Shown: positions 3,658 to 46,126 of the stretch, one piece after another
How positions within the stretch are numbered: position 1 is the stretch's first letter
How the letters are laid out: each line of letters opens with the position of its first letter
Assembly: GCA_038046605.1 (NCBI GenBank)
Contig: JBBSVW010000009.1
Location: 4,940 to 53,980, forward strand
Source: Candidatus Micrarchaeota archaeon
GTDB lineage: Archaea; Micrarchaeota; Micrarchaeia; Norongarragalinales; SBBD01
Direction: 5' to 3'
DNA length: 49,041 nucleotides
Made by a program: the position numbers and the translations under genes
Notes under the pieces: model-generated
The model's database searches: none
What the model was told of the DNA's origin: nothing
Seen by the model: only the letters and a program-made list of their open reading frames with translations

Positions 3658-3723
3658 AACCCCTCCAGGGGAGTAGCTCCCCTACACGGGTTGCCCACTA
3701 CCCCCTTATTTACTTCTGCGAAT
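3658..3723 (-). repeat. Hairpin element copy A
   Basis: Minus strand reads AATTCGCAGAAGTAAATAAGGGGGTAGTGGGCAACCC-GTG-TAGGGGAG-CTA-CTCCCCTG-GAG-GGGTTG and aligns with copies B-D. Confidence 0.8.
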
Positions 3724-3736
3724 TCATTCTGGCCAT

Positions 3737-3866
3737 TTTCTCATGCTCCTTTTTCATGCACGACACCTCCAGGGGAGTAACTCCCCTACGCGTGTCGCCT
3801 CTACCCCTTTAGTTACTTCTGCGAATCTGATCCTGACTTCCATTTCTCATGCTCCTTTTTCATGCA
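3737..3866 (-). mobile_element. Hairpin element copy B with exact 24-bp flanking direct repeats
   Basis: TTTCTCATGCTCCTTTTTCATGCA occurs at 3737-3760 and 3843-3866. The 82-bp insert ends CGACAC-GCG-TAGGGGAG-TTA-CTCCCCTG-GAG-GTGTCG (minus strand) directly against the repeat. Confidence 0.75.
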
Positions 3867-4250
3867 TCTGTTCATCACAATCAGTAGCCCGTTTTCCTTG
3901 GCAAATAATTCCGTTTCCTTGCTTATGATTCCCTCCTGGAGCCAGATCGCCTTGGCATTTATTTCAACCGCCGCCTCGGCAATCTCAAGGCAGAATTGCG
4001 CTTTCCGGAAAACAACAACCGCATCCACCTGCAGGGTATTTGGAATTGACTGCAATGCCGGGTAGCATATTAGGCCTTCCCAATTTCCCATATTGGGATT
4101 CACGGGGATGATTTTGTACCCTTTTAGCAATAGGTATTTTGCAACATAATTGCTTGGCCGCTTCGAATCGCTGGATATTCCAACAACTGCAATCACCTTT
4201 GAGCTTGTCAGGATTTTTTTGATTATTTCCTTTTCAGAGATTACAGACAT
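3813..4250 (-). CDS. CoA-binding protein (YccU-like Rossmann fold)
   Basis: IAVVGIS..KRPSNYVAKYL..GYKIIPVNP, VDAVVVFR, AIWLQEG and MNRCMKKEH motifs. Confidence 0.9.
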   Translation of the reverse strand: MSVISEKEIIKKILTSSKVIAVVGISSDSKRPSNYVAKYLLLKGYKIIPVNPNMGNWEGLICYPALQSIPNTLQVDAVVVFRKAQFCLEIAEAAVEINAKAIWLQEGIISKETELFAKENGLLIVMNRCMKKEHEKWKSGSDSQK

Positions 4251-4314
4251 TTCATTTTACCCCTAAGAGCTTATTCTGGATGTATTTTTACACTAATAGG
4301 TACATTGGCAATTT

Positions 4315-4392
4315 GATTCACAAAAGTAAATAAGGGGGCAGAGGCAACACGAGTAGGGGGCTTAGCCCCCTATAGGTGTTAAGGGTTTCCTT
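4315..4392 (+). repeat. Hairpin element copy C
   Basis: GATTCACAAAAGTAAATAAGGGGGCAGAGGCAACAC-GAG-TAGGGGGC-TTA-GCCCCCTA-TAG-GTGTT; inverted relative to copies A and B. Confidence 0.8.
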
Positions 4393-4522
4393 CGTTTTTT
4401 AAACTTATCATAAGATAAGTATGCTGATTTTGGATGGAAATGGTGAAAAAACGGGTTTTGACCTTTCCCTAAATGGCAGTATTTCATTTTCCACAAAAAA
4501 TAATGCAATTCAAGGTGAGCGG

Positions 4523-7110: not shown

Positions 7111-7995
7111 TCAGGCGCTAGGCGCACTTCCCGGAGCTGCGTTTGCTGCATCTGCTCCCGGAGCTGCGTTTTCCCCTGCGGCTCCGCCTGCGCTTTTACC
7201 ATCGCTTTTCTCGCCTTCCTTTGCTTTTCCTCCTTTTGCCCCGATCATTGCATTTATCGCAATTGCCTGCCTTGCCGCCTTCTCAAGCAGCAGGGGCATC
7301 GAATGCTTGTTGTAGATTTCCGCAAATACCGCCAAATTGATTGCCTGATGGCGGCCCAAAACCAGCGAATCAAGCCAGAATTTATCATCAAGGTCTAGCA
7401 CATCCGCTTTGTAGATGAGGCCATCCTCGAAGGCTGCGGCCATTTTTAGGCCAACATCCATGGGCTCAATTGAAAGCTTTGAAAGTATTTTTGCTACGGC
7501 TTCGGAAATTGGCTCGCCCTTCCTAGCAACAAGTGCATCCTTGGAAATCACTACCTTTGGCCCCTGGATCTTTGCTTCTATTTTGGCCTGCTTAAGTTCC
7601 GTGAGCACGGGGCCGGGAGGCAGATTTGTTTCGCCCGCAGGGATCACGATGTCATTTGGGGCGATCTGGCCGGCCTTTGCAATAGTTTTGCTCTTGCTTT
7701 CCCTAAGAAGCTTTGCCAATTTGAATGCGGAAACGGATGAGAATACTATTGCACAGCTGCCCTCAAGGTACTTTTCGAGTTCCTTTAGATCGGGCCGTGC
7801 TTCCTCAATTGCGCGCCTGACCAGCGTTTCCCTTGTGAGGAAGGTTTCGGCGCTTCCGCGGATCTTCTTCCTTATCTGGTTGTAGTGCCTTGTTGGCAAA
7901 TTCTGCACACTGGCAATTGCCACTACCTTGCTCTCCCTAAGCTTCTTCTTCAATTGCTCGACTACTCGTTGCTTTCCAGCCTTGCTTAAAACCAT
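7111..7995 (-). CDS. rpl10: 50S ribosomal protein L10 (archaeal P0)
   Basis: AKAGQIAPNDIVIPAGETNLPPGP domain II; located between L1 and L12. Confidence 0.95.
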   Translation of the reverse strand: MVLSKAGKQRVVEQLKKKLRESKVVAIASVQNLPTRHYNQIRKKIRGSAETFLTRETLVRRAIEEARPDLKELEKYLEGSCAIVFSSVSAFKLAKLLRESKSKTIAKAGQIAPNDIVIPAGETNLPPGPVLTELKQAKIEAKIQGPKVVISKDALVARKGEPISEAVAKILSKLSIEPMDVGLKMAAAFEDGLIYKADVLDLDDKFWLDSLVLGRHQAINLAVFAEIYNKHSMPLLLEKAARQAIAINAMIGAKGGKAKEGEKSDGKSAGGAAGENAAPGADAANAAPGSAPSA

Positions 7996-14416: not shown

Positions 14417-14579
14417 AAAAAGGCATTGGAGCGGATTTCTGAAATAATTATTATCGTGCGGTTTTCCTACGGACCGATATTTTTTTCCCCATTTCGAAAA
14501 GGTTTTCACCCTCTCAACGATAGCTTTTAAAATGCGGAATGCCTCTTTTTTTAAAAGTGGGCTTATTTGGTGGTATATC

Positions 14580-17027
14580 ATGACGAAAAACATCTACTGG
14601 TTCAATGAGCTTTCAAGGGCTTCGCTAAATGTTGCAGGCGGGAAGGGTTCGAACCTGGGGGAGATGTTCAACCACGGTTTCCCAATTCCGGAGGGCTTTA
14701 TTGTTTCCGCGGAGAGTTATTTCGAATTCATCAAGTCAACGGGGATAGACAAGGCAATAGCGCAGGTAACCAAGGATTTGGACGTCGAGGACACCGCCAA
14801 GTTGCAGCAGGTTTCCGTTGCCTTGAAAGAAGCAATTGTTGCGGTGAAAATGCCAAATGATCTCCGGGCGGACATCATCCGCGCATACAACCAATTATGC
14901 GGGGCGGAAATGCCCACATCACAGCAGGAGCAATGGGTCGCTGTTCGCTCATCCGCAACAGCGGAGGATTTGCCGGAAGCCAGCTTTGCCGGCCAGCAGG
15001 CAACATTCCTAAACATCAAGGGGCAGGATGCCGTTGTAAAGGCGGTTAGGGATTGCTGGGCTTCGCTATTCGAGGCGCGCGCGATTTATTACAGGGGGGA
15101 GCAGCATTTTGACAATTTGAAAGTGGGGATTGCCGTTGTGATCCAAAGGATGGTCCAAAGCGACAAGAGCGGGATCATGTTTTCAGTCGATCCGGTTTCA
15201 CAGGATCCAAATAACCTCGTCATCGAGGCTGGCTTTGGGCTTGGGGAGGCGGTTGTCAGCGGCGCAATCACGCCGGATATGTACATAATCGACAAAAGGA
15301 CGGTTAAAATTATTCAAAAAGTCATAAACAAGCAGGAGATGCTAATCACAAGGGTCGATGGAGAGGATAAGGAAATGAAGGTGGAGGAGGAATTGCAGGA
15401 GGTCCAAAAATTATCCGAGGAGGAAATCCTGACGCTTGCAAAGTACGGCATCACGATTGAAAACCACTACAGTTTCCCGCAGGACATGGAATGGGCAATT
15501 GAGGGCAGGAAGATTTACATCGTGCAAAGCCGCGCAATCACAACCTTGAAGAAAAAGGGCGCATCACAGGGGGGGAATTATTCAACGGATAAAAAAGGGA
15601 CAGCAGGTGGATCAACAATGTCTGAATTGAAAGGGCCAACAAAGCAGGTTTCGGATGACCCATTTGAGGTGCAGGAAATATCGGCGGACAATGCGGTCCA
15701 GTTATTGCAAGGTTCAAGGGCATCGCCCGGCATAGCATGGGGGCCGGTAAAAATGATCATGGATCCAAAGGAAATATCCAGGGTGTATGAGGGGGATATC
15801 CTGGTCACAAGGATGACAACGCCGGATTTCGTGCCCGCCATGAAGCGCGCGGCCGCAATCGTAACTGATGAGGGCGGAGCTACTTGCCATGCCGCAATTG
15901 TGAGCCGCGAACTTGGGATACCCTGCATCGTAGGCACAAGGGAAGCCACCCACAAATTGAAGGAGGGGCAGATCATTACAGTAGATGCAAAGCGGGGGAT
16001 TGTTTATGATGGAAGGGTTGCGCTTGAAACCAAAAAAGTGGATGCGGGAGGGAATAGCGCAGGGGCAACAAATGCGCATCTTGCGACATTCACAATCACA
16101 GGCACAAAATTGTATGTGAATTTGGCGGAACCGGAAAAAGCGGATGAAATCGCGGAGAATTATGTCGATGGAGTCGGGCTTTTACGCGCCGAATTCATGA
16201 TAGCCGGGCTAGGGAAGCACCCGCGCATGATGATCGAGCAGGGAAGGCAGGAGGAATACATTGATGCCCTGGCAAAGGGGCTTCGCAAGTTCTGCGCGGC
16301 ATTCTACCCAAGGCCGATCATTTACCGTGCTACGGATTTCAAGACAAACGAATACAGGAACCTCGAGGGAGGGGAAAAGTTCGAGCCCAAGGAGGAAAAC
16401 CCCATGATTGGCTACCGCGGCTGCTTTAGGTACATAAAAGAGCCGGAGGTATTTGCCCTTGAGCTTGCGGCAATCAACAAGGTCCGCAACCAATACGGCA
16501 TGAAGAACCTGCATTTGATGCTCCCATTCGTCAGGCGCGTCGAGGATTTCAAGGCATGCAAGCGGCTGGTAGAAAATGCGGGTTTGGAGCGCAATTTTGA
16601 TTTCAAGCTTGGGATCATGTGCGAAGTGCCATCGAATGTAATCAGCGCAGAGGAGTTTTGCAAGGCGGGAGTTGATTTCTTCTCAATTGGCTCGAATGAT
16701 TTGACGCAGCTGACACTTGGTGTGGATCGCGATTCGCCCCTTGTTGCGGAGGATTTCGATGAGAGGGATCCGGCGATTTTGAACTCAATTAAGCATGTGA
16801 TCAAGGTATGCCACAAATACGGCGTAAAGGTTGGGATCTGCGGGCAGGCACCATCGGTTTATCCGGAATTTGCAGAGGCGCTTGTTAGGTATGGGATCGA
16901 TTCCATTTCGGTGAATCCGGATGTGATTGATATCACAAGAAGGAGCATCGCTTCGGCGGAGCAGAAGGTCATCATTGAAAAACTGAAAGGGCTGGAGGAT
17001 GCCAGTGAAAAGGAAAGTGCTTGGTAA
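14580..17027 (+). CDS. ppsA: Phosphoenolpyruvate synthase
   Basis: GGKGSNLGEM, AVRSSATAED, GGATCHAAIVSRELG (phospho-His), EENPMIGYRG and FSIGSNDLTQ motifs. Probable start MTKNIYW at 14580. Confidence 0.96.
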   Translation: MTKNIYWFNELSRASLNVAGGKGSNLGEMFNHGFPIPEGFIVSAESYFEFIKSTGIDKAIAQVTKDLDVEDTAKLQQVSVALKEAIVAVKMPNDLRADIIRAYNQLCGAEMPTSQQEQWVAVRSSATAEDLPEASFAGQQATFLNIKGQDAVVKAVRDCWASLFEARAIYYRGEQHFDNLKVGIAVVIQRMVQSDKSGIMFSVDPVSQDPNNLVIEAGFGLGEAVVSGAITPDMYIIDKRTVKIIQKVINKQEMLITRVDGEDKEMKVEEELQEVQKLSEEEILTLAKYGITIENHYSFPQDMEWAIEGRKIYIVQSRAITTLKKKGASQGGNYSTDKKGTAGGSTMSELKGPTKQVSDDPFEVQEISADNAVQLLQGSRASPGIAWGPVKMIMDPKEISRVYEGDILVTRMTTPDFVPAMKRAAAIVTDEGGATCHAAIVSRELGIPCIVGTREATHKLKEGQIITVDAKRGIVYDGRVALETKKVDAGGNSAGATNAHLATFTITGTKLYVNLAEPEKADEIAENYVDGVGLLRAEFMIAGLGKHPRMMIEQGRQEEYIDALAKGLRKFCAAFYPRPIIYRATDFKTNEYRNLEGGEKFEPKEENPMIGYRGCFRYIKEPEVFALELAAINKVRNQYGMKNLHLMLPFVRRVEDFKACKRLVENAGLERNFDFKLGIMCEVPSNVISAEEFCKAGVDFFSIGSNDLTQLTLGVDRDSPLVAEDFDERDPAILNSIKHVIKVCHKYGVKVGICGQAPSVYPEFAEALVRYGIDSISVNPDVIDITRRSIASAEQKVIIEKLKGLEDASEKESAW

Positions 17028-17046
17028 TAGGGGGTAGCGGGCGACC
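17024..17046 (+). repeat. Partial hairpin-element-like sequence (copy F) overlapping the ppsA stop
   Basis: GTAATAGGGGGTAGCGGGCGACC versus copy A GTAAATAAGGGGGTAGTGGGCAACC. Confidence 0.45.
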
Positions 17047-18024: not shown

Positions 18025-18240
18025 AGTGGGCCAGCCCGGATTTTAACGCCTTGCCCCTTTCTTTTCAAAAAAGAAAGCGGCGATGGCTCCGCTGGAAAGA
18101 AAACAATTTGCTTTGAAAGGGGGTAGAGGCGATGTACGAATTGATAGGCAACTCGGACATTAGTAGAGGCGAACTCTACATAACACGAGTAGGGGGGAAT
18201 CCTTCCCCCCTATAGGTGTCGAGTGGGCCAGCCCGGATTT
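18025..18240 (+). mobile_element. Hairpin element copy D bounded by a 19-bp duplication of the tRNA-Ile 3' end
   Basis: AGTGGGCCAGCCCGGATTT occurs at 18025-18043 and 18222-18240. The insert ends AACAC-GAG-TAGGGGGGAA-TCC-TTCCCCCCTA-TAG-GTGTCG and has an internal 10-bp repeat GTAGAGGCGA (18123, 18163). Confidence 0.75.
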
Positions 18241-18375
18241 GAACCGGGAACCTTTCGATGTCCGACATTGGTCATTGCATCGCCACTTTACAGCGGAAAT
18301 GCGTTATCAGTCGAACGCTCCAACCAGATTAAGCTACAGGAATCAGCTCCCGAAAAACTTGTTTGCGAGGGTCCC
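18224..18375 (-). tRNA. tRNA-Ile(GAU) with two introns: 32 nt at position 3/4 (18341-18372) and 45 nt at 37/38 (18260-18304)
   Basis: Spliced sequence GGG|CCTGTAGCTTAATCTGGTTGGAGCGTTCGACTGATA|ATCGAAAGGTTCCCGGTTCAAATCCGGGCTGGCCCA folds as a cloverleaf. Anticodon at 18308-18306; BHB-type motifs at both junctions. Confidence 0.88.
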
Positions 18376-19162
18376 TGACTGTAGTAGCCCACAGGGTAGC
18401 TTTTTGGAGCCTATCATTTTTATATGCTATGTCGAAGCCGATATTTTTTGAAAAATTGACAAACGAGGTTCTTTTAACTCGTAAACGAAGCATGCAAGTT
18501 GTAGTATCATCCCGTTTTCTCTTAAGTTCATCTATTTTTGTTATTTCCGAGGTCTCCACCCCCAAATCGGACATGATTTTCCTCATGTGATTCAAAAAAA
18601 GGTAACCGTTTTCAACAATCGACATTTCCTTACCCATTGAATACTTCAATTCCCAGTAACCATATTTGCCAGTCTTGAAAACAGAACCCTCACAAGAGAA
18701 TGCCCTTCTTAAAAACGCCGATTTTATTTCGTTTGGCCCTCCTAAAATCCATTCGGGTATCGAGTATTTTTCCGTAACTTTATCGCCAATTTGTGTACCG
18801 CAAAGCATCAATATCCGGGATAGCGCTGAATTGCACAGAATTACGCCTGTGCTGTGGCCATTCACCCTTTTGCCCCAACTCCTTATTTTCCCCTGGACTC
18901 CAAAAACTTTCATGAGTAGTGAATTGAAGTAATCAAGTTCCCCGATATTTTTAGAGAAATAGCCCATGTAGTCATATTTCCAATGATTGTCTATTTTTCT
19001 TCCCTCCAAATGCCCATCAGTTAGGAGGCTTGCCACAATCTCAGCCAGTTCCGGTGAAGAGGTTACCGGAAACCATCCGCCATATTTTGAGATTGCTTTT
19101 TCCGCGAAAACGGAGTACCTGTAAGTAGATGCAAATCTTTCCTTATCCACAAGAATTTCCAT
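18329..19162 (-). CDS. Free-standing double-motif LAGLIDADG (intein/DOD-type) homing endonuclease-like protein
   Basis: LAEIVASLLTDGHL and SAFLRRAFSCEGS motifs, IPEWI linker, C-terminal F.KNIGF...KNDRL. No intein splicing termini. Confidence 0.8.
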   Translation of the reverse strand: MEILVDKERFASTYRYSVFAEKAISKYGGWFPVTSSPELAEIVASLLTDGHLEGRKIDNHWKYDYMGYFSKNIGELDYFNSLLMKVFGVQGKIRSWGKRVNGHSTGVILCNSALSRILMLCGTQIGDKVTEKYSIPEWILGGPNEIKSAFLRRAFSCEGSVFKTGKYGYWELKYSMGKEMSIVENGYLFLNHMRKIMSDLGVETSEITKIDELKRKRDDTTTCMLRLRVKRTSFVNFSKNIGFDIAYKNDRLQKATLWATTVRDPRKQVFRELIPVA

Positions 19163-19312
19163 TTTAGCTCGAAGATTTTTCGAAAAAAATAGTATATAAG
19201 GACGATGGGGGATAACTTCGGGTGAGGTGTAAAAATTAATCCATGGTAAAATATAGTATTGGCAAATCTATGTAAACTACCTGCCGCTGAAGCGGCAGGC
19301 GTTTGAGGCTAA

Positions 19313-19759
19313 TTAAAAATCAGAGAGCACCGATTGCTTTTCCCAGTGCTTGCGCTGCTGGCGCTCGATGTAGTAGCGCACTGTTTCCGCAGTGACGCGC
19401 CCGACTGTTTCCGCGAAATAGCCCCCTGACCAGAAGCGGTTGCCCCAGAGCTTCGTGCGGACGCGCTCCGCGAAATGCAGGCGCAGGAAGCGCGACGTCG
19501 CGCCCTTGAAGCGCTGCGCAAGCTGCGATGCCGAATAGTTCTTGCACCTGCAGACGAACAGGTGCCAGTGGTCGGGGCCAAACTCGCTCGCGCCGATTTC
19601 GATTCCAAGCGCGCTCGCGATGCGCTTTGCCTCGGAAGCGCAAGCTTCTTTAAGCACCCCGTCGCGAAACATATCGCGCCGGAATGCGGGCGTGAACTGG
19701 AGGTGGAAATTCCAGCCGCCGAAGGCGTGGTTCATGGAAATCAGGCTGTCGCTACTCAT
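19313..19759 (-). CDS. tnpA: IS200-type Y1 HUH transposase
   Basis: HLQFTPAFRR, PDHWHLFV (HUH), FKGATSR, FWSGGYFAETVG and YYIERQ (catalytic Tyr) motifs. Confidence 0.93.
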   Translation of the reverse strand: MSSDSLISMNHAFGGWNFHLQFTPAFRRDMFRDGVLKEACASEAKRIASALGIEIGASEFGPDHWHLFVCRCKNYSASQLAQRFKGATSRFLRLHFAERVRTKLWGNRFWSGGYFAETVGRVTAETVRYYIERQQRKHWEKQSVLSDF

Positions 19760-19771: not shown

Positions 19772-19815
19772 CGGGCGGCTATCTTCGCGCCGCGCGCAAG
19801 CGGCGCAGCCGCCCG
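19772..19815 (-). promoter_or_regulatory. GC-rich hairpin abutting the tnpA RBS
   Basis: CGGGCGGCT...AGCCGCCCG stem enclosing GCGCCGC/GCGGCGC, directly followed on the minus strand by GAGGTAATGAACCATG. Confidence 0.6.
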
Positions 19816-39100: not shown

Positions 39101-40083
39101 GTGTTGGAGGAGTCCGATTTTTCCAAATCAATTTTTGCTGGCGCAGTAAGGAAAATGGAATTCAGCATTGAGGGGTCCTTTAGGCCTTTTATTGAAATCG
39201 AGGATTCCGGCTCGGAATCAATATCCTTGCCAAATGCCCTGATATTCCGTTTAAAGGCACTTTTTATGGAGATTTCCAGATCGAAAATAGTCTCATTGGT
39301 CCCGTTGTTTTCCCGGACCCTTTTTTTTAGCGACTTGAATGAAATTTTGCTGTTTTTTGAAAATTTACCGCGCAGAATTTCCAGATTAACTGCATCATCG
39401 TCCAAAATCAAGGTGGTGTTGGATAGGTTAGCATCAATGGTTGAATTTGTCAGGTTTAGGATTGAAGTCGTGTTGGTATCGTTTAGGGGAATGCTGATGT
39501 TCAATTCGGATTCATTTGCATGGGAATAATTTGCATCAATAGTTGGGGATGGCGAAATCGAAACATCGGGTGATGGTGAAATAATAATTTCCGGAGTGGG
39601 CGAGGGAATAATTGAAGGGAGGGGCGAGGGCTCGAATGTCACGGATACATTAGGTGAAACAAAGGGAATCGCACTTGGAGAAATTATTATTTCCGGGGTA
39701 GGTAAGGGAAAAATTATTGCATCTGGAGAAGGTGAAAAAGTAACTTCGGGTGTAGGCGAAAATGTGGGCTCGATTGATGGTGAAGGTGCAATAGTTGGCA
39801 TTGGCGCAGGGGTCGCATAAATTGAAGGCTCCGGCGAAGAATTGGCATTTGGATTGGGCGTTGGCGTAAAATCGGCATTTTGGGAAGGTGATGGGGAAAA
39901 TTGGATAAGTTCAGTTGGGGAGGGGGTTGGCATGGGGGTTGCATTGGATAACATGCCCGATGGATAAGCTGATAAATCATCAGAATCCTGGCCAACTCCT
40001 CCAACTATAATTAACGCAAAAAACAGGGCGGCAACTAGGACAAAAGGCGCAAATAGGAAAACTCTTCCGCGCATGTGGATCAA
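24184..40083 (-). CDS. Giant (5299 aa) surface glycoprotein fused via a TM helix to a HerA/VirB4-like (DUF87) ATPase
   Basis: N-terminal hydrophobic segment, P/S/T repeats, beta-helix modules (LDC.G..I.G), eight ~96-aa Ig-like repeats and dense N-x-S/T sequons. TM at ~25540-25600, then THVLIAGATGSGKT, LIFDP, LLVYDEVH, GAREFRKWG and LISQ. Confidence 0.9.
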   Translation of the reverse strand: MIHMRGRVFLFAPFVLVAALFFALIIVGGVGQDSDDLSAYPSGMLSNATPMPTPSPTELIQFSPSPSQNADFTPTPNPNANSSPEPSIYATPAPMPTIAPSPSIEPTFSPTPEVTFSPSPDAIIFPLPTPEIIISPSAIPFVSPNVSVTFEPSPLPSIIPSPTPEIIISPSPDVSISPSPTIDANYSHANESELNISIPLNDTNTTSILNLTNSTIDANLSNTTLILDDDAVNLEILRGKFSKNSKISFKSLKKRVRENNGTNETIFDLEISIKSAFKRNIRAFGKDIDSEPESSISIKGLKDPSMLNSIFLTAPAKIDLEKSDSSNTVAALTTDFIGFEPLEFDEAQIILPSSSKTEKILICEGIDGITGECSNWHISETPFIESDGSVTFSVDHFSGYAGANITILNLQSFPVVGSNWTVRFTTNGSAPLTITAIDNTSFGTDLEFKFLKCGETDLSPTFNGTSVFMDNYSCVFEGSEESIVHTLGKHRLEFRFGDAVAYANNYASLLRWYFSNLTSDLSGFRKRLNVTSPGEDTALYNESVVISDGTYFSTSWYSPHFNVTSFGEKTYVSGIYRVSARLGQGSGVAGSYTVYAEIMKYNQSGSYLTISTANLGTNFNCLSAGETKAVNVTIPRSENTTLLPGERIGTRFLLVTESCSFSVDFELFYNRSDTFMDFYNETVGTCENLTSSFTLGYPANATGNCYNILSNNIVLDCGGNAVIGNGSGMGVNVTGKSNVTVKNCIISNFSDGIFVNNSLNFTLINTTIYKSPNDLRLANSPFANISSNSFYGNGSGLGLNATNSSNLTIRSSYFYSCPTCAYLNGSNNLTILHTVFTNGTTSLDLQNGQIASLLNTTIRNYIKTGTAISLNIFDNLTLQNSSIANYTTGFSGTGSSNISIRNTNFSNTTTAISLDSASDGLIDSSTFLNSPRAGTAISLASFENMTVQNSSIANFSTGITEDSFSGFNLLTTNISNSTNGLLITGSYGLVKSNFFYGNSLGLRISTGNYIKIYSNIFENNTGIGVEITAPFTSAQFNLIENNTFRNNSPTNLIVSGSIATAPTVSGNNFTNNIFYASPLGYDINISGSQSNTFLNNTFNRSLLGYSTANGVINNLTLQNYIRANVTGQNGFPLQGALVNITNSTLGATNFTGLVTGTEGLTDFEAVAEFIGNNTVNTTLTYYNISGSYGGIVNSTLASVNESKSVLLVIPATGCSTISSPTTLVSDVVASGNCFVFGQNSVSLDCNGHSITGAGSGNGVNLNSNINLVVKNCVISNFSNGITGSDIRNLTLINSTLHTNAKGATFNGINGSKFYTTVFENNTNTGLELTNSFDYMAYNEVENNTFRNNTAQNLLISIATTGSEPFSTGNNFTSNIFVSSQNGNDIRLVKSQSNYFVNNTFDRSRLSYGAGINNLTIQNYLRIQVVDQLFNPIPGALANITNGQFPNATNYTGLVTDSSGLTSFVLVTEFIGSNLGNSTNAISNLTYYNFSASYGGVSNRTLHPVNASNTVLVIIPLIAGCGNIASSGSLSASISTTGTCLNITADSVEIDCRGYTISGNNAAGMAGINVTGRSNVLVRNCIISKFEHGILVSKSINFTLINTTLSQNGNGLMAAGSNFTNISASTFFGNGTGLGINASQSHNLTVGYTIFTSNKVSINLNASVNFSISNSEQNNASNGTRLVYSNYSIFVNDTFIGRGVGFGINATSSSNVSVLQSTFINFTYAFFASDSSNLTIFNSTILNSSAGINLNSSFAGIVSNVTLSGTASGTAISLNGFTNFSIIFSTISNYSIGILARSNSNFFYLFNSSIRNVPTGTTYGIYFDTGNTGNITRAFIQGKRTGTGFYSYNFQKITVLDSEFMNLSSALYLSSSTGLFLNNSNISDTVNNGLELDAYTSSNVSHNLLYRNLKGIVLGAQFSSSTNLFKYNILENNTNFGFELDGDNGNKIISNTVENNTFRNNTISNLYFYSTTGTFPNNVDNNFTSNVFIPAPNGYDINLSRICCNTFLNNSFNRSRIGFASNASLTIQNYIQVQAVNSTLDPIPGAYVNITNSTSGATNFNDLATDGQGLTVISAVTEFIGNNSVNTTLTLYNFSAAFSDIYNTSLHEVNYSRIVTLILRDTFAPSNIIAIPPTPANASYTSNNWVNISFNFTETNPNNCILQWGNGTLQNLSMTRDGNNCNINVSSQPDGTHNYTIIVNDSAGNIAQNGTFYVTIDTALPSTIRTVPPTPANASYTSNNWVNISFNFTETNPNNCILQWGNGTLQNLSMTRDGNNCNINVSSQPDGTHNYTIIVNDSAGNIAQNGTFYITIDTVLPTTIRTVSPTLANASFTPNNWTFVNFTFTETNPGNCLLSWGNGTLQNLTMTRDGNSCYLNVTRQPDGTHNYTIIVNDSAGNFAQNGTFYVTIDTAVPTTIRTVFPTLANASYTANTWVFVNATFTETNPNNCLLQWGNGSFQNLTMIRSGNSCYLNVTLQPDGVHNYTIIVNDSAGNMATNGTFYITIDLTPPSSLQPISPTLTNNSNTSNTWIYVNFTFTELNPSACWVQWYNGTYQNLTMSRAGNNCSINITNQPDGQWNYDLFVNDSAGNVGSNRSFFVNIDSNAPTNIRTVSPTLANASFTNRNWVYVNTTFTETFPHTCNLQWNNGSFVNITMSREGTNCYYNLTNQPDGRWNYTIIVNDTTNNYGQNGTFFVTVDTTIPSSLNILPPTPANNSNLSRNWVNITYSFIETNFNSCFVQWVNSSGYSNLTASRVGNNCSINITSQPQGNWNYTVFVNDSAGNIGQNGTFFVSLDTALPSQLQFVLPTPSNNSRIYGDWVFANATFSEANPETCTLVWNNGTAHNLTMDRVSSNCFLNLTNQPLGAWNYTLVVNDSAGNSAQNGTFFLEFWANTTVNHLSANQTYTKNGIANITVIFSRTSFANFTNDADAIQFASGNGTNITINSGNVSLNFTDQSSNTSYFASGIFERTIDAGYANAHWKISWNSTVPINSSLAIQAAVSADNSTFSPFENLSNSTLSIINGTPARYLKYRLLFGSNGSVTAFLNEINATAMYGINGNATFNLTNRITNATLTKSCIAMDGNCTIGFAFPSELRGGNYSINITASNISAFLDSSSEIFYSYFEEAITNGSILVPDRTISNLNASGQIFLMNVSLENKLNGTMHFPAINFTTKSSSITSIARISSSCGPMVSPFGNCNATFNLSISGSATPGTHTITWNASWTNNNGTNYTIANRSNVIVSSNPALSTSVSIINISSNLSQTNSTTVTVTNIGNIQIFNITASLIAGNIPPSWISLSPLIDPGQSPSFTYDLQVDVLIGNYTPATYIGKINLTADDQTNGKNSTSTYIDLQIQVNPQINSSPAAVTANISLTNNQSISTTISNPGNAPITNVSVSVINSTIPSSWISFNSPSSGWNSSSISWTSISEGSGAVLQIIINVLDFIAGIFSALVKITSNEGRATYINVTVNVSPGISIQPLLNLTTGHGKVNITSFLINSTGNIKLVNLTVSFISGTIPQNWISLSPSTIPNITEGVNYSVYLNVSVPFGQLPGNYTGIINISGYNANGTLNLTVHVPTDTSWHFLPGANQTKDFGLSESGVVGTITINNTGNANHSFTIGYADFGGRASCIGGPPSGQDFCGAGQGIPANPSTVSAPKNSSTSFTIMKTSVGDTNITDGYAVQISMSNSTALPTSNSTILFFNITNAPPKFSQNATFVGNALRTYVEFNGTIKLSAIATDDELWGLNLDYAQFNISRPDGTNNTLNATNQTLNTAQICGGACLDAQNYTYPFNMTNVTGIYNATFFIRDRSSQLNSTSIQFEVIGNTSLLLLGNSTNVSGITNAANYSLILNISTNNTGLVSAYSINLSGMLARASNATDTLANWSFNAIPTIPYLNGSSINLTQFNITIAPRSYGIYYFTPNASFRNPNGTIAHIWGQNITITALQNANFSISISNQSISLQHGQNQSEWLEISPNGNDNITNYNITYSTPFANFSVNFNNTQGNISALGSANISFNISTLYHSSSGFRNFTINITAGAISRTFVVNLTIPYNNTWGLNLNNITINGIAGDSSINSQAQITHSGTSDALLNFTFNLTGNMTSFSNLLNQSKYLNSSQSFAVPINYTVPDSNSQYMGVLNISEGNGSIARLVNITFNSFTVEVHVHAIYAPSQVLAGDPINITARLVFGGQNQTINTTWSVFGDGSACAIFSNSTSGNFTNLNCTAPSLTDATYHNITVKANFTNGNVFLAKNITNASAIFYRDITPPRMISEDSNDTELYSNTTLVLNATDNFQPANATAILTFPNGTASNFSLPFNSTRQLFIGSYNFTSLGLHTINYAANDTTGNSNSSLNGSFEIYQTRQFNGSLQNLEGQFLFVNFSIRNSTDGNLDNFTTNATGHYNKSLRAKWYELGIKFLFYNATINSVDFNTINQGFITLDNFTGSDISSQIAGAKAGFAAIIQAPTNGSLVIDYAPLLSSITDESLLRIYQCANYTYASRTCVGSWDYLLNTTTNSISNIISANFSSFANNISAFALVQYVAPTPTPAPGGTTTTGGSSGGSSGSYNPPPATATPSATPKADNITAQLEELKKLLKENKTESIGLEPGVSSLTFELYPGESTQSAIHIKNLLNISSEINVSMVGGIRPFITTGTKTIKLNRLHETDLLVFGSIPDGTRAGNFFGELQLANEIGRISIPVTVRVLEKKEDRLIDLRLQPLVDTLDPGETLRVELSLYNLGEPKEISGQFTLELVDPVTDEILSKSETESISFQTTYNSIRAVKIPRETRNGRFVVRGILLYSVEGGKLREVSAISYFKVQASIWSSKLFGTLSLWQLLPILLILAASFITYYRQYQIAQKKRRYIARVDFTKLPEPGPRSGFLGLIAESKVRAFASLDKLQTHVLIAGATGSGKTVAAQVIAEEALMKNISVLIFDPTAQWTGFLRPQKNRDMLSQYKHYGLNTDSARAFKGNIFVVRDPNLPIDIRKVAKPGEATIFVMNKLSFADHETFVANTIKQVFAAGLTESPELKLLLVYDEVHRLLPKFGGRGEGFIQIERGAREFRKWGVGMVLISQVLSDFVGEIKANIGTEIQMRTKYEGDLERLKLKFGEDAARSIVKESIGSGMVQNSEYNNGQPYFVSFRPLLHNIVRLSDTELSQYEEYNTKVEKLEFEMEKLRSQGEDVLDLELEINLARDKVKKGAFNIVEIYLESLEQKIEGMKRKSKRKPDRMIDFSDLGIGSLGGEIRRESNASGEPATTNNTKAEKDEDKDKPIKLGLADISKPQKDDAGLESRKDDKNKDIA
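31420..33730 (-). repeat. Tandem array of eight ~288-bp Ig-like repeats inside the giant gene
   Basis: Repeat unit D(T)xxP...PTxAN...F(T/S)ExN..C...W.N...VND(S/T).(G/N)N...NGTF. Segments 33161-33405 and 33449-33693 appear identical. Confidence 0.85.
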
Positions 40084-42539: not shown

Positions 42540-42542
42540 ATT

Positions 42543-43704: not shown

Positions 43705-43762
43705 TCGAGGATTATTTAAGAAGCTGGAATATGCAGGCAATTGGTGCATCCTAATCCGCCAA

Positions 43763-45361
43763 TCAGATTTTCTTGCTCATGTAAACTCCCTCGAGCGCAT
43801 ACCCCTTCTTCTTGTAGTATTCCCGCACGCCAACTCCGGATATGATGAGCATCTTTTCCATGCCGTATTCCTCCTTTGCAATTTTCTCCGCTTCGGCTAG
43901 GAGCTGCGTGCCATACCCCTCGTGCTGGATCGGGTCGAATTTATCGGGAAGCTTTTTCCCAATTGGCATTTGGAGCCCGTAAACGTGCAGTTCACGGATG
44001 CCAGCGGTTTTCGCATCCATTTCGGGCATGAAGGAATCGGGGGAATTAATGCGAAGCCGGATAAAGCCCATGAGGGCATCGTTTGTTTTGTCCTCGAAGG
44101 AAAGGAAAATCTCTTTGCCATCAGAGGCATCATAGTTGCGCCGCACCAATTCAACCGCATCATAATCCACCTTGATTTTTTGCTTTAGCATCTTTATGCC
44201 TATTTCCCTGCAGCGGATGCATTTGCAAACAATCCCCTTTTTCTTGCAAATTTTAGCCACCATTTCCCGGAGGTTGCTCTTTTGCACCCCATCGGCGATG
44301 AGGTTTGTTGGGATGTCACGATTGACCCTCATGATGCGGCAGTATTCGGGAACGTGCCTTTTTGCCTCGGAAATGACTTCCGCTGCTTCCTCCGCATTAT
44401 ATGGCTTGTACTCCCCTTTTTTCCACATTGAATAAAGCTCGGTTCCGGGCATCACCAAGGTCGGATAAATTTTAAGCATATCCGGCTTGAAATCTGGATT
44501 GGAAAAAAGCTCCTTGAAATAACCAACATCCTGCTCGGGAGTGGCAAAAAGGCCGGGCATCATATGGTAGCATATCTTAAGGAGGGCGTCCTTGCATCTT
44601 TTTGTACCGTCAACTACTGCCTTTACATCATGTCCCCGTTTAGAAAGAACCATGATCCGGTCATCCAGGCTTTGAACGCCGAGCTCGATTCGGGTTGTGC
44701 CAAATTCCAGCAATTTTTTTATTTGCCCTTCCGCGCAGTAATCCGGGCGGGTTTCAATTGTTAGCCCAATGACGCGGTGTTTTGCCTTTTCATTTAGGGT
44801 TTTGGCCTCCTCAAGCGTGCCACTGACCTTTTCGTTGAATGCATCATATGCACCCTTGATGAAATTGTATTGGTAATTGTAGGGAAGCGCATTGATGGTT
44901 CCGCCCTGGATTATTAGCTCGTTTTTTTCGGCGGAATGCCCAATCAATCCAAATTGGCGAAGCCTTGCTTCCACCTGCCTATAGGAGCTAAATCCATTTT
45001 GCTCCGCGCGCCTTGCTGCAGGCTCCTTGCCAGTGTAAGCCTTTGGGGAGTTGAACTCCGGGCCTCCGGGGCAGTAGATGCATTTTCCGGGGCAGGGAAG
45101 GGGAGCGGTCATTATTGCAATGTTTGAAATGCCGGAAAGGGCGCGGATGTGCTTGATTTTGAGTGCTTTTCGCAATTCCGGCGTCATTTTTCCCTCGGAT
45201 TCAAGCTTTTCAAGGATTTGGGGGTTCTTCACAACCTGCGATTGCTTGTAGCGCTTTGCAAGGGAGTTTTTCAAAAGCAACAGTTCCTGCGAGGTAAGAT
45301 TGGGGTTTTCGGATATCTCCTCGTAAATTTCCGATATTATCTGGTCCGTTTTATCTTCCAT
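43763..45361 (-). CDS. elp3: Elp3 tRNA U34 carboxymethyltransferase (radical SAM plus KAT)
   Basis: CPGKCIYCPGG, GLTIETRPD, RIELGVQ, IRCREIG, IRELHVYG, QHEGYG and ISGVGVREYY motifs. Probable start MEDK at 45361. Confidence 0.95.
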   Translation of the reverse strand: MEDKTDQIISEIYEEISENPNLTSQELLLLKNSLAKRYKQSQVVKNPQILEKLESEGKMTPELRKALKIKHIRALSGISNIAIMTAPLPCPGKCIYCPGGPEFNSPKAYTGKEPAARRAEQNGFSSYRQVEARLRQFGLIGHSAEKNELIIQGGTINALPYNYQYNFIKGAYDAFNEKVSGTLEEAKTLNEKAKHRVIGLTIETRPDYCAEGQIKKLLEFGTTRIELGVQSLDDRIMVLSKRGHDVKAVVDGTKRCKDALLKICYHMMPGLFATPEQDVGYFKELFSNPDFKPDMLKIYPTLVMPGTELYSMWKKGEYKPYNAEEAAEVISEAKRHVPEYCRIMRVNRDIPTNLIADGVQKSNLREMVAKICKKKGIVCKCIRCREIGIKMLKQKIKVDYDAVELVRRNYDASDGKEIFLSFEDKTNDALMGFIRLRINSPDSFMPEMDAKTAGIRELHVYGLQMPIGKKLPDKFDPIQHEGYGTQLLAEAEKIAKEEYGMEKMLIISGVGVREYYKKKGYALEGVYMSKKI

Positions 45362-45487
45362 CTTCCCCCACCAAAACGCATATCCCACATTAGAGATTGG
45401 TTTTACCCTAAAAAAAGTACAAACCGTAAAAAAGTTATATTGGAAAAAGGAAAAAAAACCGGTCACTTCAAATCCGCCGCACGTTTT

Positions 45488-45838
45488 CTACTTCTCTTTT
45501 GGGTAAGTGACGATTCCCGCAAAGAGGAGCACAAGGCCTGCGATACCATCGATCAGTGCATTTGCCATATATCCACCGTTCATCGCGGCAATTGATTTGG
45601 ATAGAAGTTCCCTTGCATCCTTGGAGGCCTGCGCAATATCCGCATCGGATTGGCCGTAGCTTTTTGCAAGTTCCTCGTTTGCAATGATTTGCGCTTCCAG
45701 GGCGGGCTTTGTCGCCTCGTACTGCGCGCTATTGATTGTCATCTGGTTTAGCTGTGAAAGCGCTAGTGTTGCGAATGCGACCCCAAGCAAGAGCAGTGCG
45801 ATACTAATGGCCTTCATGTTCATGGATTTCACCTTCAA
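45488..45838 (-). CDS. Small two-TM membrane protein
   Basis: Hydrophobic N- and C-terminal segments flanking a helical loop. Confidence 0.65.
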   Translation of the reverse strand: MKVKSMNMKAISIALLLLGVAFATLALSQLNQMTINSAQYEATKPALEAQIIANEELAKSYGQSDADIAQASKDARELLSKSIAAMNGGYMANALIDGIAGLVLLFAGIVTYPKEK

Positions 45839-45890
45839 AATGATGTATTCTAATTCTTCCCCAGCTTTATTAAATATCCCAAATTCTTCA

Positions 45891-45962
45891 AGCCCCCGGC
45901 GAGATTTGAACTCGCGGCCTTCTGCTTACAAGGCAGACGCTCTACCGCTGAGCTACGGAGGC
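45891..45962 (-). tRNA. tRNA-Thr(UGU)
   Basis: GCCTCCGTAGCTCAGCGGTAGAGCGTCTGCCT-TGT-AAGCAGAAGGCCGCGAGTTCAAATCTCGCCGGGGGCT folds as a cloverleaf with no intron. Confidence 0.95.
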
Positions 45963-46126
45963 ACGGAAAAAGGATTTGGAATCAAAGATTTAAAAGAGGG
46001 GGTGACGATCCGACATCGGGAGGGTGCCAAACAACCTCGCGATGAGCAGGCTTAAAGCCTGCGAAAAGGGTAGGGGGAGCCATCCCCATAGGCTTGTCAC
46101 GTCTCTACCGCTGAGCTACGGAGGCA
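45940..46126 (+). mobile_element. Divergent hairpin element copy E bounded by a 24-bp duplication of the tRNA-Thr 5' end
   Basis: CTCTACCGCTGAGCTACGGAGGCA occurs at 45940-45963 and 46103-46126. The insert contains AGGGGGTGAC...GTAGGGGGAGCCATCCCCATAGGCTTGTCAC. Confidence 0.65.

What the first reader, a model, noticed from the sequence alone, without database searches (positions are those of the whole stretch)
3658..46126. Candidate new mobile mini-element: covarying imperfect hairpin that inserts at gene and tRNA ends with 19-24 bp target duplications
Seen: related copies at 3658-3723(-), 3761-3826(-), 4315-4380(+) and 18119-18221(+), a divergent copy at 45997-46100(+) and a partial one at 17024-17046. 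The approximate consensus is GATTCRCARAAGTAAMTAARGGGGYAG-GGC-[outer stem]-GNG-TAGGGG..CCCCTR-KAG-[outer stem]. The outer stem covaries (CGACAC/GTGTCG, AACAC/GTGTT, CAACCC/GGGTTG), and the inner stem changes length and sequence while staying paired around a 3x3 internal loop. In three independent loci an exact 24, 19 or 24 bp direct repeat starts at or within 2 nt of the 3' foot of the hairpin. Its twin lies 82, 178 or 139 bp upstream, so the 3' end is fixed and the 5' cargo varies. Each target (CoA-binding gene, tRNA-Ile, tRNA-Thr) stays intact. Known: IS200/IS605 HUH transposition makes no TSD; long TSDs at tRNA genes are typical of Cas1-type casposases; fixed 3' ends with variable 5' ends are typical of target-primed reverse transcription. 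Inference: a non-autonomous element moved by an unidentified enzyme. A scaffold followed by ~20 nt of target-identical sequence also resembles a guide-RNA layout.
Basis: partly seen in the sequence, partly recalled or inferred. Interest (0 to 1): 0.85.

Follow-up and report, generated by a model that had tools for sequence, protein, structure and literature searches.

The report
Hairpin repeat that duplicates gene ends
A roughly 50-base hairpin repeat confined to one group of tiny Micrarchaeota archaea sits at the ends of genes and tRNAs between two copies of the gene's last 16-85 bases, also forms part of tRNA introns, and has no recognisable enzyme to move it.

Summary
All five copies, the covarying hairpin and the exact 24, 19 and 24 bp direct repeats lie where stated. 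The sixth, partial copy is only a match to the 5' motif.

- **Distribution:** my covariance model finds 46 copies in this 1.64 Mb genome. It hits 10 of 10 sister genomes of the family and 1 of 30 genomes from other families of the order.
- **Real insertions:** four sister genomes have empty tRNA-Ile sites.
- **Not ordinary target-site duplications:** the repeats range from 16 to 85 bp. In 16 of 17 sense-gene cases they end at the stop codon. Where the two copies differ, 45 of 58 changed codons are synonymous, so the displaced copy is not decaying neutrally.
- **Enzymes:** reverse transcriptase is missing from 11 of 11 family genomes. Integrase, Cas1, TnpB, serine recombinase and IS110 are missing from this genome.
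- **Intron link:** the element is also the 5' part of T-loop tRNA introns.

Best reading (0.4): a gene-less cassette that spreads between homologous loci by host recombination, using the duplicated gene end as a homology arm. New loci would be seeded by rare illegitimate joins at the hairpin foot.

Earlier notes of this scan describe the same pattern in other DPANN genomes. My searches found no paper that describes it.

The parts
3657..3723 (-). Copy A: short-form hairpin element with its 5' stop-codon-rich leader. It has no flanking repeat of its own.
   Evidence: R1 hit at contig position C9:8596-8645, which is window 3657-3706, E 2.6e-10; fold z -2.5.
3761..3826 (-). Copy B: short-form element. 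The CoA-binding ORF reads into its leader and stops there.
   Evidence: R1 hit at window 3761-3809, E 4.3e-13; sequence read; ORF 3813-4250(-).
3843..3866 (-). Functional copy of the 24-nt repeat, inside the CoA-binding gene.
   Evidence: the repeat finder family D3, 100% identity.
3737..3760 (-). Displaced (orphan) copy of the 24-nt repeat. It abuts the foot of copy B and continues into an alternative in-frame tail that ends in the leader of copy A.
3813..4250 (-). Target gene: CoA-binding protein (145 aa), intact.
   Evidence: Pfam CoA_binding_2, E 6.8e-35.
4315..4381 (+). Copy C: short-form element in a divergent intergenic region, with no flanking repeat.
   Evidence: R1 hit at window 4333-4381, E 3.2e-12; no repeat above shuffles; fold z -4.3.
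17024..17046 (+). 5'-motif fragment directly after the stop codon of ORF 14532-17027. It is not a foldable full copy.
   Evidence: Sequence read; fold z +0.97; no R1 hit.
18025..18043 (+). Orphan copy of the last 17 nt of tRNA-Ile plus 2 nt. It still adjoins the native run of T (read in the tRNA sense).
   Evidence: Empty sites in G003-G006 show the tRNA end directly followed by that run.
18048..18103 (+). Module X: member of a separate, abundant repeat that forms tRNA introns in the T-loop and anticodon loop elsewhere in this genome.
   Evidence: Many hits to this stretch in all 11 family genomes; 20 BLAST hits in the own genome, several inside tRNA genes.
18119..18221 (+). Copy D: long form with three hairpins. 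Its foot lies 0-2 nt from the tRNA-Ile 3' end, on the opposite strand.
   Evidence: Partial R1 hit, E 2.4e-4; fold z -4.0; 78-86% identical long forms on four other contigs.
18222..18240 (+). Copy of the 19-nt repeat that is part of the intact tRNA-Ile.
18228..18340 (-). Target: tRNA-Ile gene with an anticodon-loop intron.
   Evidence: Rfam tRNA, 35.6 bits; orthologues with and without the intron.
45891..45962 (-). Target: tRNA-Thr(UGU), intact.
   Evidence: ARAGORN; Rfam, 75.5 bits.
45940..45963 (+). Copy of the 24-nt repeat inside tRNA-Thr (its first 23 nt plus 1 nt upstream).
45997..46100 (+). Copy E: divergent long-form subtype. An outer stem closes three hairpins.
   Evidence: Aligned to the subtype beside tRNA-Lys; fold z -4.1; not detected by R1.
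46103..46126 (+). Orphan copy of the tRNA-Thr 5' end, next to the former upstream region of the tRNA.

Best explanation
The element is a gene-less, selfish hairpin cassette with about 46 copies in this genome. It is found only in one family of Micrarchaeota.

**What is shown**
- A conserved single-stranded 5' motif is followed by a covarying hairpin with a 3x3 internal loop.
- An AT-rich leader full of stop codons sits on the 5' side.
- The 3' end (the foot) is sharply fixed.
- The element lies exactly at gene and tRNA termini, usually between two copies of the terminal 16-85 nt of the neighbouring gene.
- One copy completes the gene. The other is displaced but keeps its reading frame and stop codon.
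- The same hairpin forms part of tRNA T-loop introns.

**How it spreads (inferred)**
Once a locus carries the arrangement 'gene end, element, displaced gene end', the whole block moves to the same gene in related cells by ordinary homologous recombination. The gene body with the first copy is the left arm. The displaced copy is the right arm. Because both arms match the same stretch of the target, integration re-creates the duplication.

Each transfer pairs a donor's working gene end with the recipient's own former working end. That would explain three observations:
- The two copies differ at synonymous sites only.
- The repeat ends at the stop codon.
- Arrays build up with identical boundaries.

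New loci would be seeded rarely, by an illegitimate or template-switch join. In that join the copied strand ends at the hairpin foot and is rejoined upstream of where it left.

No dedicated transposase would be needed. Conservation of the hairpin may reflect a role as a 3'-end or terminator structure that keeps the insertion harmless, a role in the seeding step, or both.
For: - **Real family:** 46 R1 hits at E < 1e-3 in the own genome. Hits in 10 of 10 family genomes and 1 of 30 genomes of other families. An exact core pattern occurs in 45 loci of the species collection, all titled Micrarchaeota or Norongarragalinales or untitled archaeon MAGs, and in 0 viral contigs.
- **Real insertion:** tRNA-Ile sites are empty in G003, G004, G005 and G006. 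The ATPase site is empty in G005 and in two metagenome alleles.
- **Repeats at the foot:** 35 of 93 regex-defined hairpins have a gapless repeat of 18-83 bp starting at the foot.
- **Repeat ends at the stop codon:** in 16 of 17 sense-gene cases the stop codon ends between -15 and +6 nt from the repeat's right edge.
- **Non-neutral orphans:** in 17 diverged pairs, 45 changed codons are synonymous and 13 are not. Differences by codon position are 12, 7 and 50. P = 2.5e-13 even if only one copy is constrained.
- **Array:** five copies of the ATPase tail are separated by four different hairpin subtypes. All five keep frame and stop codon. Four share one left boundary, which also recurs in G003. 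The copies are 67-86% identical to each other, about as far apart as they are from G005.
- **Shared loci:** all 4 loci examined carry an element in another genome of the genus while other genomes are empty. These are tRNA-Ile in G001, the ATPase in G003, the contig C34 gene in G003 and the CoA gene in G005. Both copies carry residues specific to their own lineage.
- **No dedicated enzyme found:** RVT_1 in 0 of 11 genomes. No Phage_integrase, TnpB Zn-ribbon, Cas1, Resolvase or IS110 in the own genome.
- **No target motif** at either repeat boundary.
Against: - The nearly invariant 11-nt motif 5' of the hairpin and the exact foot suggest recognition by a protein, which passive recombination does not need.
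- Recombination between alleles only 70-80% identical over arms of 16-85 nt should be inefficient. DNA transfer between these cells has not been shown.
- I found no closer strain that carries a donor allele. The metagenome scan returned only G005-like and G006-like alleles among the near relatives.
- The public runs are contigs only and show no filled/empty polymorphism.
- 58 of 93 hairpins show no repeat under my filters.
- The left boundary differs between G000 (61 nt) and G003 (39 nt) at the contig C34 gene.
- The seeding step is pure inference. My microhomology test at the 5' junction was inconclusive: 7 usable cases, mean 0.71 nt against 0.28 nt in controls.
- The genome is 90.7% complete, so an enzyme could lie in the missing part or belong to an unknown family.
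Confidence: 0.4

Rival explanations
1. It is a true non-autonomous transposon moved by an unidentified dedicated enzyme. The enzyme would recognise the conserved 5' motif and hairpin, probably as single-stranded DNA, and would make long, variable staggered cuts at gene ends.
For: - Sharp foot, a nearly invariant 5' motif containing GTAG, and a strand-specific fold with U-G (or T-G) pairs.
- Identical repeats of 18-56 bp at many loci.
- Simple duplication relative to the empty sites.
- About 46 copies at unrelated loci.
Against: - There is no candidate enzyme. RVT_1 is absent from 0 of 11 family genomes, and integrase, TnpB, Cas1, resolvase and IS110 are absent from the own genome.
- Repeat length varies about fivefold.
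- No target motif is seen at the boundaries.
- The 5' end is not fixed.
- Synonymous-only divergence of the repeats is not explained.
Confidence: 0.2
2. It is not mobile in itself. It is a conserved 3'-end structure, such as a terminator or RNA-stability hairpin, inherited at many gene ends. The repeats come from local slippage or unequal crossing-over.
For: - It sits stop-to-stop between genes. In 15 of 46 copies a co-oriented ORF ends within 25 nt upstream. In 11 of 46 an antisense ORF ends within 25 nt of the foot, 8 of them at -3 or +1.
- The reverse strand reads as a hairpin followed by a T-rich tract directly behind four tRNAs.
Against: - Occupancy among species is patchy, with clean empty sites.
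- Different hairpin subtypes occur within one array.
- Copies lie inside tRNA introns.
- Slippage would give identical units, not recoded ones.
Confidence: 0.1
3. It is a miniature integrative element of the att type. Each cassette would carry its own replacement gene end, as prophages do at tRNA or icd, and would be inserted by a site-specific recombinase supplied in trans.
For: - Replacement-type, recoded gene ends.
- tRNA 3' ends as targets.
- An identical block at the foot-proximal side in several pairs.
Against: - No Phage_integrase or Resolvase hit in the own genome.
- Dozens of different 'att' sequences share one hairpin, with no common core.
- No long copy carrying a gene was found. 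Searching the own genome with the 70 nt beyond each foot returned only nearby repeats (within about 1.2 kb on the same contig) and matches to other element copies or related tRNA ends on other contigs.
Confidence: 0.08
4. It is an intron-like element acting on RNA. The archaeal splicing endonuclease would remove the first tail and the hairpin, so that the displaced copy is translated and stays under selection.
For: - The hairpin, read on the reverse strand, is the 5' part of the T-loop intron of tRNA-Gly and of another tRNA.
- Module X is an intron family.
- Both copies are constrained at protein level.
- Relatives of this lineage have a broad-specificity endonuclease (PMC3239211, abstract as listed).
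Against: - The 3x3 loop is symmetric. It is not a bulge-helix-bulge, as read from the structure tested.
- Next to tRNAs the element lies on the opposite strand from its position next to protein genes.
- The first copy already ends in a stop codon, so splicing is not needed.
- No RNA data are available.
Confidence: 0.07
5. It is a REP-like element mobilised by the IS200-type HUH (Y1) transposase encoded at 19313-19759(-).
For: - A Y1_Tnp gene lies 1.1 kb from copy D.
- The element has a GTAG motif 5' of an imperfect hairpin, which recalls REP sequences. That comparison is recalled and was not tested.
- An earlier scan note links a RAYT gene to a displaced gene end in a CPR bacterium.
Against: - Y1_Tnp is present in only 5 of 11 family genomes, while the element is in 11 of 11. 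It is absent from three genomes of 7-20 contigs.
- The gene is single-copy with its own, different flanking hairpins.
Confidence: 0.06
6. It is a SINE-like retroelement inserted by target-primed reverse transcription.
For: A fixed 3' end, a variable 5' end and variable duplication length.
Against: - RVT_1 is found in 0 of 11 family genomes, and the control genomes did give hits.
- The repeats are recoded.
Confidence: 0.04
7. It is a guide RNA: the hairpin is the scaffold and the following repeat is a guide against the twin sequence.
For: The layout of a scaffold followed by target-identical sequence in the three window loci.
Against: - The 'guides' are 16-85 nt long and mismatch their twin by up to 28%.
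- No TnpB-type Zn-ribbon and no IS110 in the own genome.
- Many copies have no repeat.
- No Rfam family matches, even at E <= 5.
Confidence: 0.02

Closest known systems
Prophage-type gene-end replacement (phage 21 / e14 in the 3' end of E. coli icd). Recalled; also named in earlier scan note e1-3551627.
   Same: The incoming DNA supplies a working, synonymously diverged copy of the gene's last codons. The resident end is displaced downstream as an orphan.
   Different: Here the insert is 40-200 nt with no genes. No integrase is detectable in the genome. Dozens of different genes and tRNAs are hit by one hairpin family.
C-terminal duplications beside mobile homing-endonuclease ORFs in fungal mitochondrial genes (PMC6279837; I read one passage).
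   Same: A partial duplicate of the C-terminal segment of a gene lies downstream of the intact gene, with mobile DNA between them.
   Different: In the fungal cases the mobile DNA encodes GIY-YIG or LAGLIDADG endonucleases. Here it encodes nothing. The free-standing LAGLIDADG ORF beside tRNA-Ile is syntenic whether or not the element is present.
REP / BIME hairpin repeats and MITEs of prokaryotes. I read passages of the review PMC2229807, which cites Suyama 2005 on the M. jannaschii MJRE repeats. I did not see the Suyama paper.
   Same: They are small, gene-less, structured repeats at gene ends with many copies per genome. Some fuse to reading frames.
   Different: This element has no terminal inverted repeats, no short fixed duplication and no matching transposase. 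The duplications are long, variable and recoded.
Integration of a mobile element at a tRNA gene that leaves a tRNA fragment and creates introns, in Caldiarchaeum (PMC3293823; I read the abstract).
   Same: A displaced tRNA fragment is left beside an intact tRNA, and mobile-DNA insertion is linked to gain of tRNA introns.
   Different: That element is 1.8 kb and is predicted to encode a recombinase. This one is 50-180 nt with no gene.
Archaeal bulge-helix-bulge tRNA introns at non-canonical positions in ultrasmall archaea (PMC3239211 and PMC4090602; I saw only the titles and abstracts listed).
   Same: The hairpin and module X occur inside T-loop and anticodon-loop introns. The repeat boundaries in tRNA-Ile and tRNA-Leu fall in the T-loop.
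   Different: Most copies lie outside tRNAs, at protein-gene ends. The hairpin's internal loop is symmetric and is not a bulge-helix-bulge.
Homology-facilitated illegitimate recombination in naturally transformable bacteria. Recalled; no paper was read.
   Same: One side of the incoming DNA is anchored by homology and the other side is joined without homology.
   Different: It is known as a laboratory and HGT mechanism. It is not known as the life cycle of a repeat family with a fixed hairpin end.

Membership tests
MITE (non-autonomous DDE transposon) | Terminal inverted repeats that match an autonomous IS element | tested here: not met
   The 5' end is variable and the only fixed end is the hairpin foot. 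Only one rve-type gene is present in the genome, at a contig end.
MITE (non-autonomous DDE transposon) | Short target-site duplication of fixed length | tested here: not met
   The repeats are 18-83 bp in 35 cases and 16 bp in G001.
REP element with a RAYT, or an IS200/IS605 derivative | A cognate Y1 HUH transposase that co-occurs with the repeats and is flanked by them | tested here: not met
   Y1_Tnp is in 5 of 11 genomes and the element is in 11 of 11. The gene's flanking hairpins differ from the element.
REP element with a RAYT, or an IS200/IS605 derivative | Insertion without a target duplication | tested here: not met
   Direct repeats abut the foot in 35 of 93 copies.
SINE-like or TPRT retroelement | A reverse transcriptase available in the genome | tested here: not met
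   RVT_1 is found in 0 of 11 family genomes, and the control genomes did give hits.
Casposon (Cas1 casposase) | A Cas1-family integrase, terminal inverted repeats and a duplication of about 14-15 bp | tested here: not met
   No Cas_Cas1 hit in the own genome, no terminal inverted repeats, and variable repeat length.
Integrative element with att sites | A tyrosine or serine recombinase | tested here: not met
   No Phage_integrase or Resolvase hit in the own genome, which is 90.7% complete.
Integrative element with att sites | An element-borne replacement of the gene end, with the native end displaced | tested here: met
   Both copies keep frame and stop codon. Codon differences are 45 synonymous against 13 non-synonymous.
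TnpB / IscB omega-RNA or IS110 bridge RNA | An associated nuclease or recombinase gene and a guide of defined length | tested here: not met
   No Cas12f1-like_TNB or DEDD_Tnp_IS110 hit. The 'guide' would be 16-85 nt.
Archaeal BHB intron | Located inside an RNA gene and removed to give the mature RNA | tested here: inconclusive
   The element lies inside the T-loop of tRNA-Gly and of one other tRNA. Most copies are outside RNA genes. No RNA data are available.
Archaeal BHB intron | A bulge-helix-bulge motif at the ends | tested here: not met
   The conserved internal loop is 3x3 and symmetric. The predicted pre-tRNA-Gly fold shows a 7/7 internal loop next to the T-stem and no canonical 3-4-3 motif. 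This is prediction only.
Any curated RNA family (Rfam 15) | A match to a covariance model | tested here: not met
   Only tRNA hits reach the gathering threshold. Nothing overlaps the element meaningfully at E <= 5.

The most novel reading that the evidence does not exclude
These hairpin cassettes and the lineage's non-canonical tRNA introns are one and the same class of enzyme-less mobile DNA. The element enters a gene or tRNA by a recombination or template-switch route and duplicates a variable stretch of the target. If the duplication reaches the end of the gene, the result is a harmless cassette with a spare gene end, which then serves as a homology arm for homing into related genomes. If the duplication is short and internal to a tRNA, the result is a new intron that the broad-specificity splicing endonuclease must remove. 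This would be a previously undescribed way for DNA to be mobile. It would also be the missing mechanism for the spread of archaeal tRNA introns.
Probability: 0.3. Interest if true: 0.9.

Novelty: new variant of a known kind. Interest (0 to 1): 0.78.

Why it matters
- **Safe insertion in a compact genome.** These genomes have almost no spacer DNA. An element that enters only at gene termini and always leaves an intact gene copy shows how selfish DNA can persist there.
- **Recoded spare ends as a record.** The displaced gene ends may record recombination between species of uncultivated DPANN archaea.
- **Link to tRNA introns.** The same hairpin sits at protein-gene ends, behind tRNAs and inside T-loop introns. 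That makes the long-open question of how archaeal protein-spliced introns are gained and move directly testable.
- **Annotation.** The displaced gene ends and tRNA fragments are easily misread as integration scars of lost viruses or as pseudogenes.

Tried and rejected
- **RNA evidence:** no RNA holder was listed for the window, so expression is untested.
- **Public runs:** they are contigs only. No skip joint removes an element, and no empty allele was seen. This says nothing about rare variants.
- **Metagenome scan with the ATPase protein:** 80 loci were kept. Only 3 are near relatives (two G005-like empty sites and one G006-like), and 77 gave no comparable tail under my motif filter. No strain-level alleles of this genome were found.
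- **Viral contigs:** 0 matches to the core pattern.
- **Long autonomous copies:** searching the own genome with the 70 nt beyond each foot gave only nearby repeats (within about 1.2 kb on the same contig) and matches to other element copies or related tRNA ends on other contigs.
- **Microhomology at the 5' junction:** only 7 usable cases, mean 0.71 nt against 0.28 nt in controls. Inconclusive.
- **Target motif at the repeat boundaries:** none found. A G starts 14 of 24 repeats, which may only be the ambiguous last base of the foot.
- **K-turn reading of the 3x3 loop:** considered by eye and dropped, because no arrangement fits the consensus I recalled.
- **Which copy is foreign:** identities to sister-species tails are all 56-81% and do not discriminate.
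- **tRNA census:** ARAGORN finds 21 tRNAs and Rfam finds 16 in the genome, because most tRNA genes are interrupted. The share of tRNAs that carry the element is therefore unknown.
- **LAGLIDADG ORF beside tRNA-Ile as the trigger:** rejected. It is syntenic in all 6 genomes of the genus, with or without the element.
- **Literature:** searches found no description of this element or pattern. Supplementary files were not consulted. The Suyama 2005 paper is not in the library and I did not see it.
- I obtained the coordinates with the repeat finder instead.

Full report
**1. The observation**

Reading the stated coordinates shows the copies as described. The repeat finder gives exact direct repeats at three places:
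- 3737-3760 / 3843-3866: 24 nt, with 82 nt between.
- 18025-18043 / 18222-18240: 19 nt exact, with 178 nt between.
- 45940-45963 / 46103-46126: 24 nt, with 139 nt between.

In each case the downstream copy begins 0-3 nt after the 3' foot of the hairpin. A scan of the whole window finds only six local direct-repeat families. Three are these repeats and three are tandem repeats elsewhere.

An alignment of 20 short-form copies supports the proposed structure:
- It has a 6-pair outer stem, a symmetric 3x3 loop and an 8-pair inner stem.
- 96.1% of cells pair, against 88.2% in shuffles and 45-59% when the partner is slid.
- Four pairs change on both sides.
- Six U-G pairs identify the folding strand.

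Independent public contigs bridge the duplications. The 'partial' copy at 17024-17046 is only a match to the 5' motif.

**2. Extent of the family**

- The covariance model R1 finds 46 copies at E < 1e-3 in the 1.64 Mb, 90.7%-complete genome.
- It finds 4-53 copies in each of the 10 other genomes of the same family, and one weak hit among 30 genomes of ten other families of the order.
- An exact core pattern occurs in 45 loci of the 185,579-species collection. All are titled Micrarchaeota or Norongarragalinales or untitled archaeon MAGs. No viral contig matches.
- No Rfam family matches.
- Subtypes exist: two main short forms, a smaller form, and long forms in which one to three extra hairpins sit inside the outer stem.

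**3. Are they insertions?**

Yes.
- **tRNA-Ile.** In G003, G004, G005 and G006 the gene is followed directly by its run of T, exactly as the orphan fragment is in the window. G001 has a homologous insertion with a 16-nt repeat. Its orphan adjoins a flank conserved with G004 and G005.
- **Secretion-type ATPase gene on contig C73.** It is followed by four different hairpins and five copies of its last 36-54 nt. G005 and two metagenome alleles are empty. G003 has one unit with the same left boundary.
- **Other loci.** The gene on contig C34 and the CoA-binding gene also carry an element or its remnant in one other genome of the genus, while further genomes are empty.

**4. What the repeats are**

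*Census.* I examined 93 regex-defined hairpins: the whole own genome plus 72 loci from relatives. Of these, 35 have a gapless repeat starting at the foot, 18-83 bp long. My filters drop window copies B and D, so this is an undercount.

*Contexts.*
- 3' ends of co-oriented genes: 17 cases.
- 5' ends of antisense genes: 8 by the mechanical classification.
- tRNA termini.

*Stop codons.* In 16 of 17 sense-gene cases the stop codon ends between -15 and +6 nt from the right edge of the repeat.

*Divergence.* In the 17 diverged pairs inside long ORFs, 45 changed codons are synonymous and 13 are not. Base differences fall 12, 7 and 50 on codon positions 1, 2 and 3. Only 19.6% of possible single changes would be synonymous. 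P is 3e-21 for random change, and 2.5e-13 if one copy were neutral and the other constrained.

*Orphans.*
- They keep frame and stop codon.
- They share lineage-specific residues with the working copy.
- At the ATPase gene the five copies are as far from each other (67-86% identity) as from the sister species.

A conventional target-site duplication that decays neutrally is therefore excluded for these pairs. Either the displaced copy was a working gene end until recently, or it is under selection.

**5. Position**

Of the 46 own-genome copies (ORFs are mechanical, at least 70 aa):
- 15 have a co-oriented ORF ending within 25 nt upstream. Often the ORF stops in the element's leader.
- 11 have an antisense ORF ending within 25 nt of the foot. 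In 8 of these the distance is -3 or +1, so the last three bases of the foot can serve as the antisense stop codon.

The foot lies within 5 nt of the 3' end of tRNA-Lys, tRNA-Leu and tRNA-Arg on the opposite strand, as at tRNA-Ile.

In tRNA-Gly and one further tRNA the element, read on the tRNA strand, starts exactly at the T-loop and forms the 5' part of an intron. The stretch 18048-18103 between the orphan and copy D belongs to a second abundant repeat. Elsewhere that repeat is a T-loop or anticodon-loop intron. The repeat boundaries in tRNA-Ile and tRNA-Leu fall in the T-loop.

**6. Enzymes**

- RVT_1 is absent from all 11 family genomes.
- Phage_integrase, the TnpB Zn-ribbon, Cas1, Resolvase and IS110 are absent from the own genome.
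- One rve gene sits at a contig end.
- A Y1_Tnp gene lies in the window at 19313-19759(-). It occurs in only 5 of 11 genomes, is single-copy, and has its own unrelated flanking hairpins. I read it as an ordinary IS200-like element.
- The LAGLIDADG ORF beside tRNA-Ile is syntenic in all six genomes of the genus, whether or not the element is present.

**7. Explanation**

*Shown:* a structured, gene-less repeat that arrives at gene termini with a duplication of the terminus, and displaced copies that are not neutral.

*Inferred:*
- Once formed, the block 'gene end, element, spare gene end' can home into the same gene of related cells by homologous recombination, because the spare end is a second homology arm.
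- Overlapping arms regenerate the duplication.
- Each transfer pairs a donor's working tail with the recipient's former working tail.

This accounts for several observations:
- Synonymous-only divergence.
- The repeat ending at the stop codon.
- Arrays with one shared boundary and different hairpins.
- Recurrence at the same loci (4 of 4 examined) with a patchy distribution.
- The lack of any transposase.

Seeding of new loci needs a separate, rare event in which a copied strand ends at the hairpin foot and is joined back upstream.

*Weak points:*
- The conserved 5' motif and the exact foot look like a protein-binding site.
- The efficiency of recombination between diverged short arms is doubtful.
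- No donor allele or population polymorphism was observed.
- The microhomology test was inconclusive.

I put this reading at 0.4. The rivals are:

| Rival | Confidence |
|---|---|
| Unknown dedicated enzyme | 0.2 |
| Non-mobile 3'-end structure | 0.1 |
| att-type mini-element | 0.08 |
| RNA-level intron | 0.07 |
| HUH-mobilised REP | 0.06 |
| TPRT | 0.04 |
| Guide RNA | 0.02 |

**8. Comparison and novelty**

The pattern works like two known cases:
- Prophage replacement of a gene's 3' end (phage 21 / e14 at icd, recalled).
- C-terminal duplications beside mobile endonuclease ORFs in fungal mitochondria (PMC6279837, passage read).

In form it resembles REP or MITE repeats (PMC2229807, passages read). 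A tRNA fragment left by a recombinase-bearing element, with intron gain, is described for Caldiarchaeum (PMC3293823, abstract read). The element fails the defining tests of each of these families (see the membership table).

Earlier notes of this scan report the same pattern in other DPANN genomes and in one Methanocaldococcus relative. I treat those as leads, not as support. My literature searches found no description of it.

I rate it a new variant of a known kind, namely small structured repeats that displace gene ends. There is a 0.3 chance that it represents a new class of mobile DNA tied to the origin of archaeal tRNA introns.

Noticed in passing
window 19313-19759 (-), flanks 19281-19300 and 19773-19817: An IS200-like Y1 (HUH) transposase gene of 148 aa. 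By eye it looks more GC-rich than its surroundings. It has its own perfect and imperfect flanking hairpins. It is single-copy in this genome and present in 5 of 11 family genomes.
   Followed up: yes
window 18329-19162 (-): A free-standing 277-aa ORF with a LAGLIDADG_3 domain lies directly upstream of tRNA-Ile. The pairing is conserved in all six genomes of the genus. The own genome has several more short LAGLIDADG ORFs, some near intron-bearing tRNAs on contig C1.
   Followed up: partly
window 18048-18103 and about 20 BLAST hits in the own genome: 'Module X' is a second abundant repeat with dozens of copies in every family genome. It forms T-loop and anticodon-loop tRNA introns. It is often followed by a sequence resembling the 5' leader of the hairpin element.
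   Followed up: partly
window 18228-18340 (-): tRNA-Ile carries an anticodon-loop intron in this genome. The intron is absent in G003, G006 and G001 and has a different sequence in G004 and G005. ARAGORN misses the gene.
   Followed up: partly
window 24184-40083 (-), repeats at 32212-33651: A giant 5299-aa ORF contains five tandem 288-nt repeats and a further 74-nt repeat pair at 37211-37491.
   Followed up: no
whole genome G000: No Phage_integrase (XerA-type) match at all in a 90.7%-complete genome, although all 14 control genomes gave hits.
   Followed up: no
L081 (G001 orthologue of the ATPase gene): The ATPase orthologue in G001 appears to be interrupted by an intein-like insert. LAGLIDADG_3 hits lie in very long open frames in several family genomes.
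   Followed up: no
window 7129-7182: A 27-nt tandem duplication (78% identity) within overlapping mechanical ORFs on both strands; its coding status was not checked.
   Followed up: no
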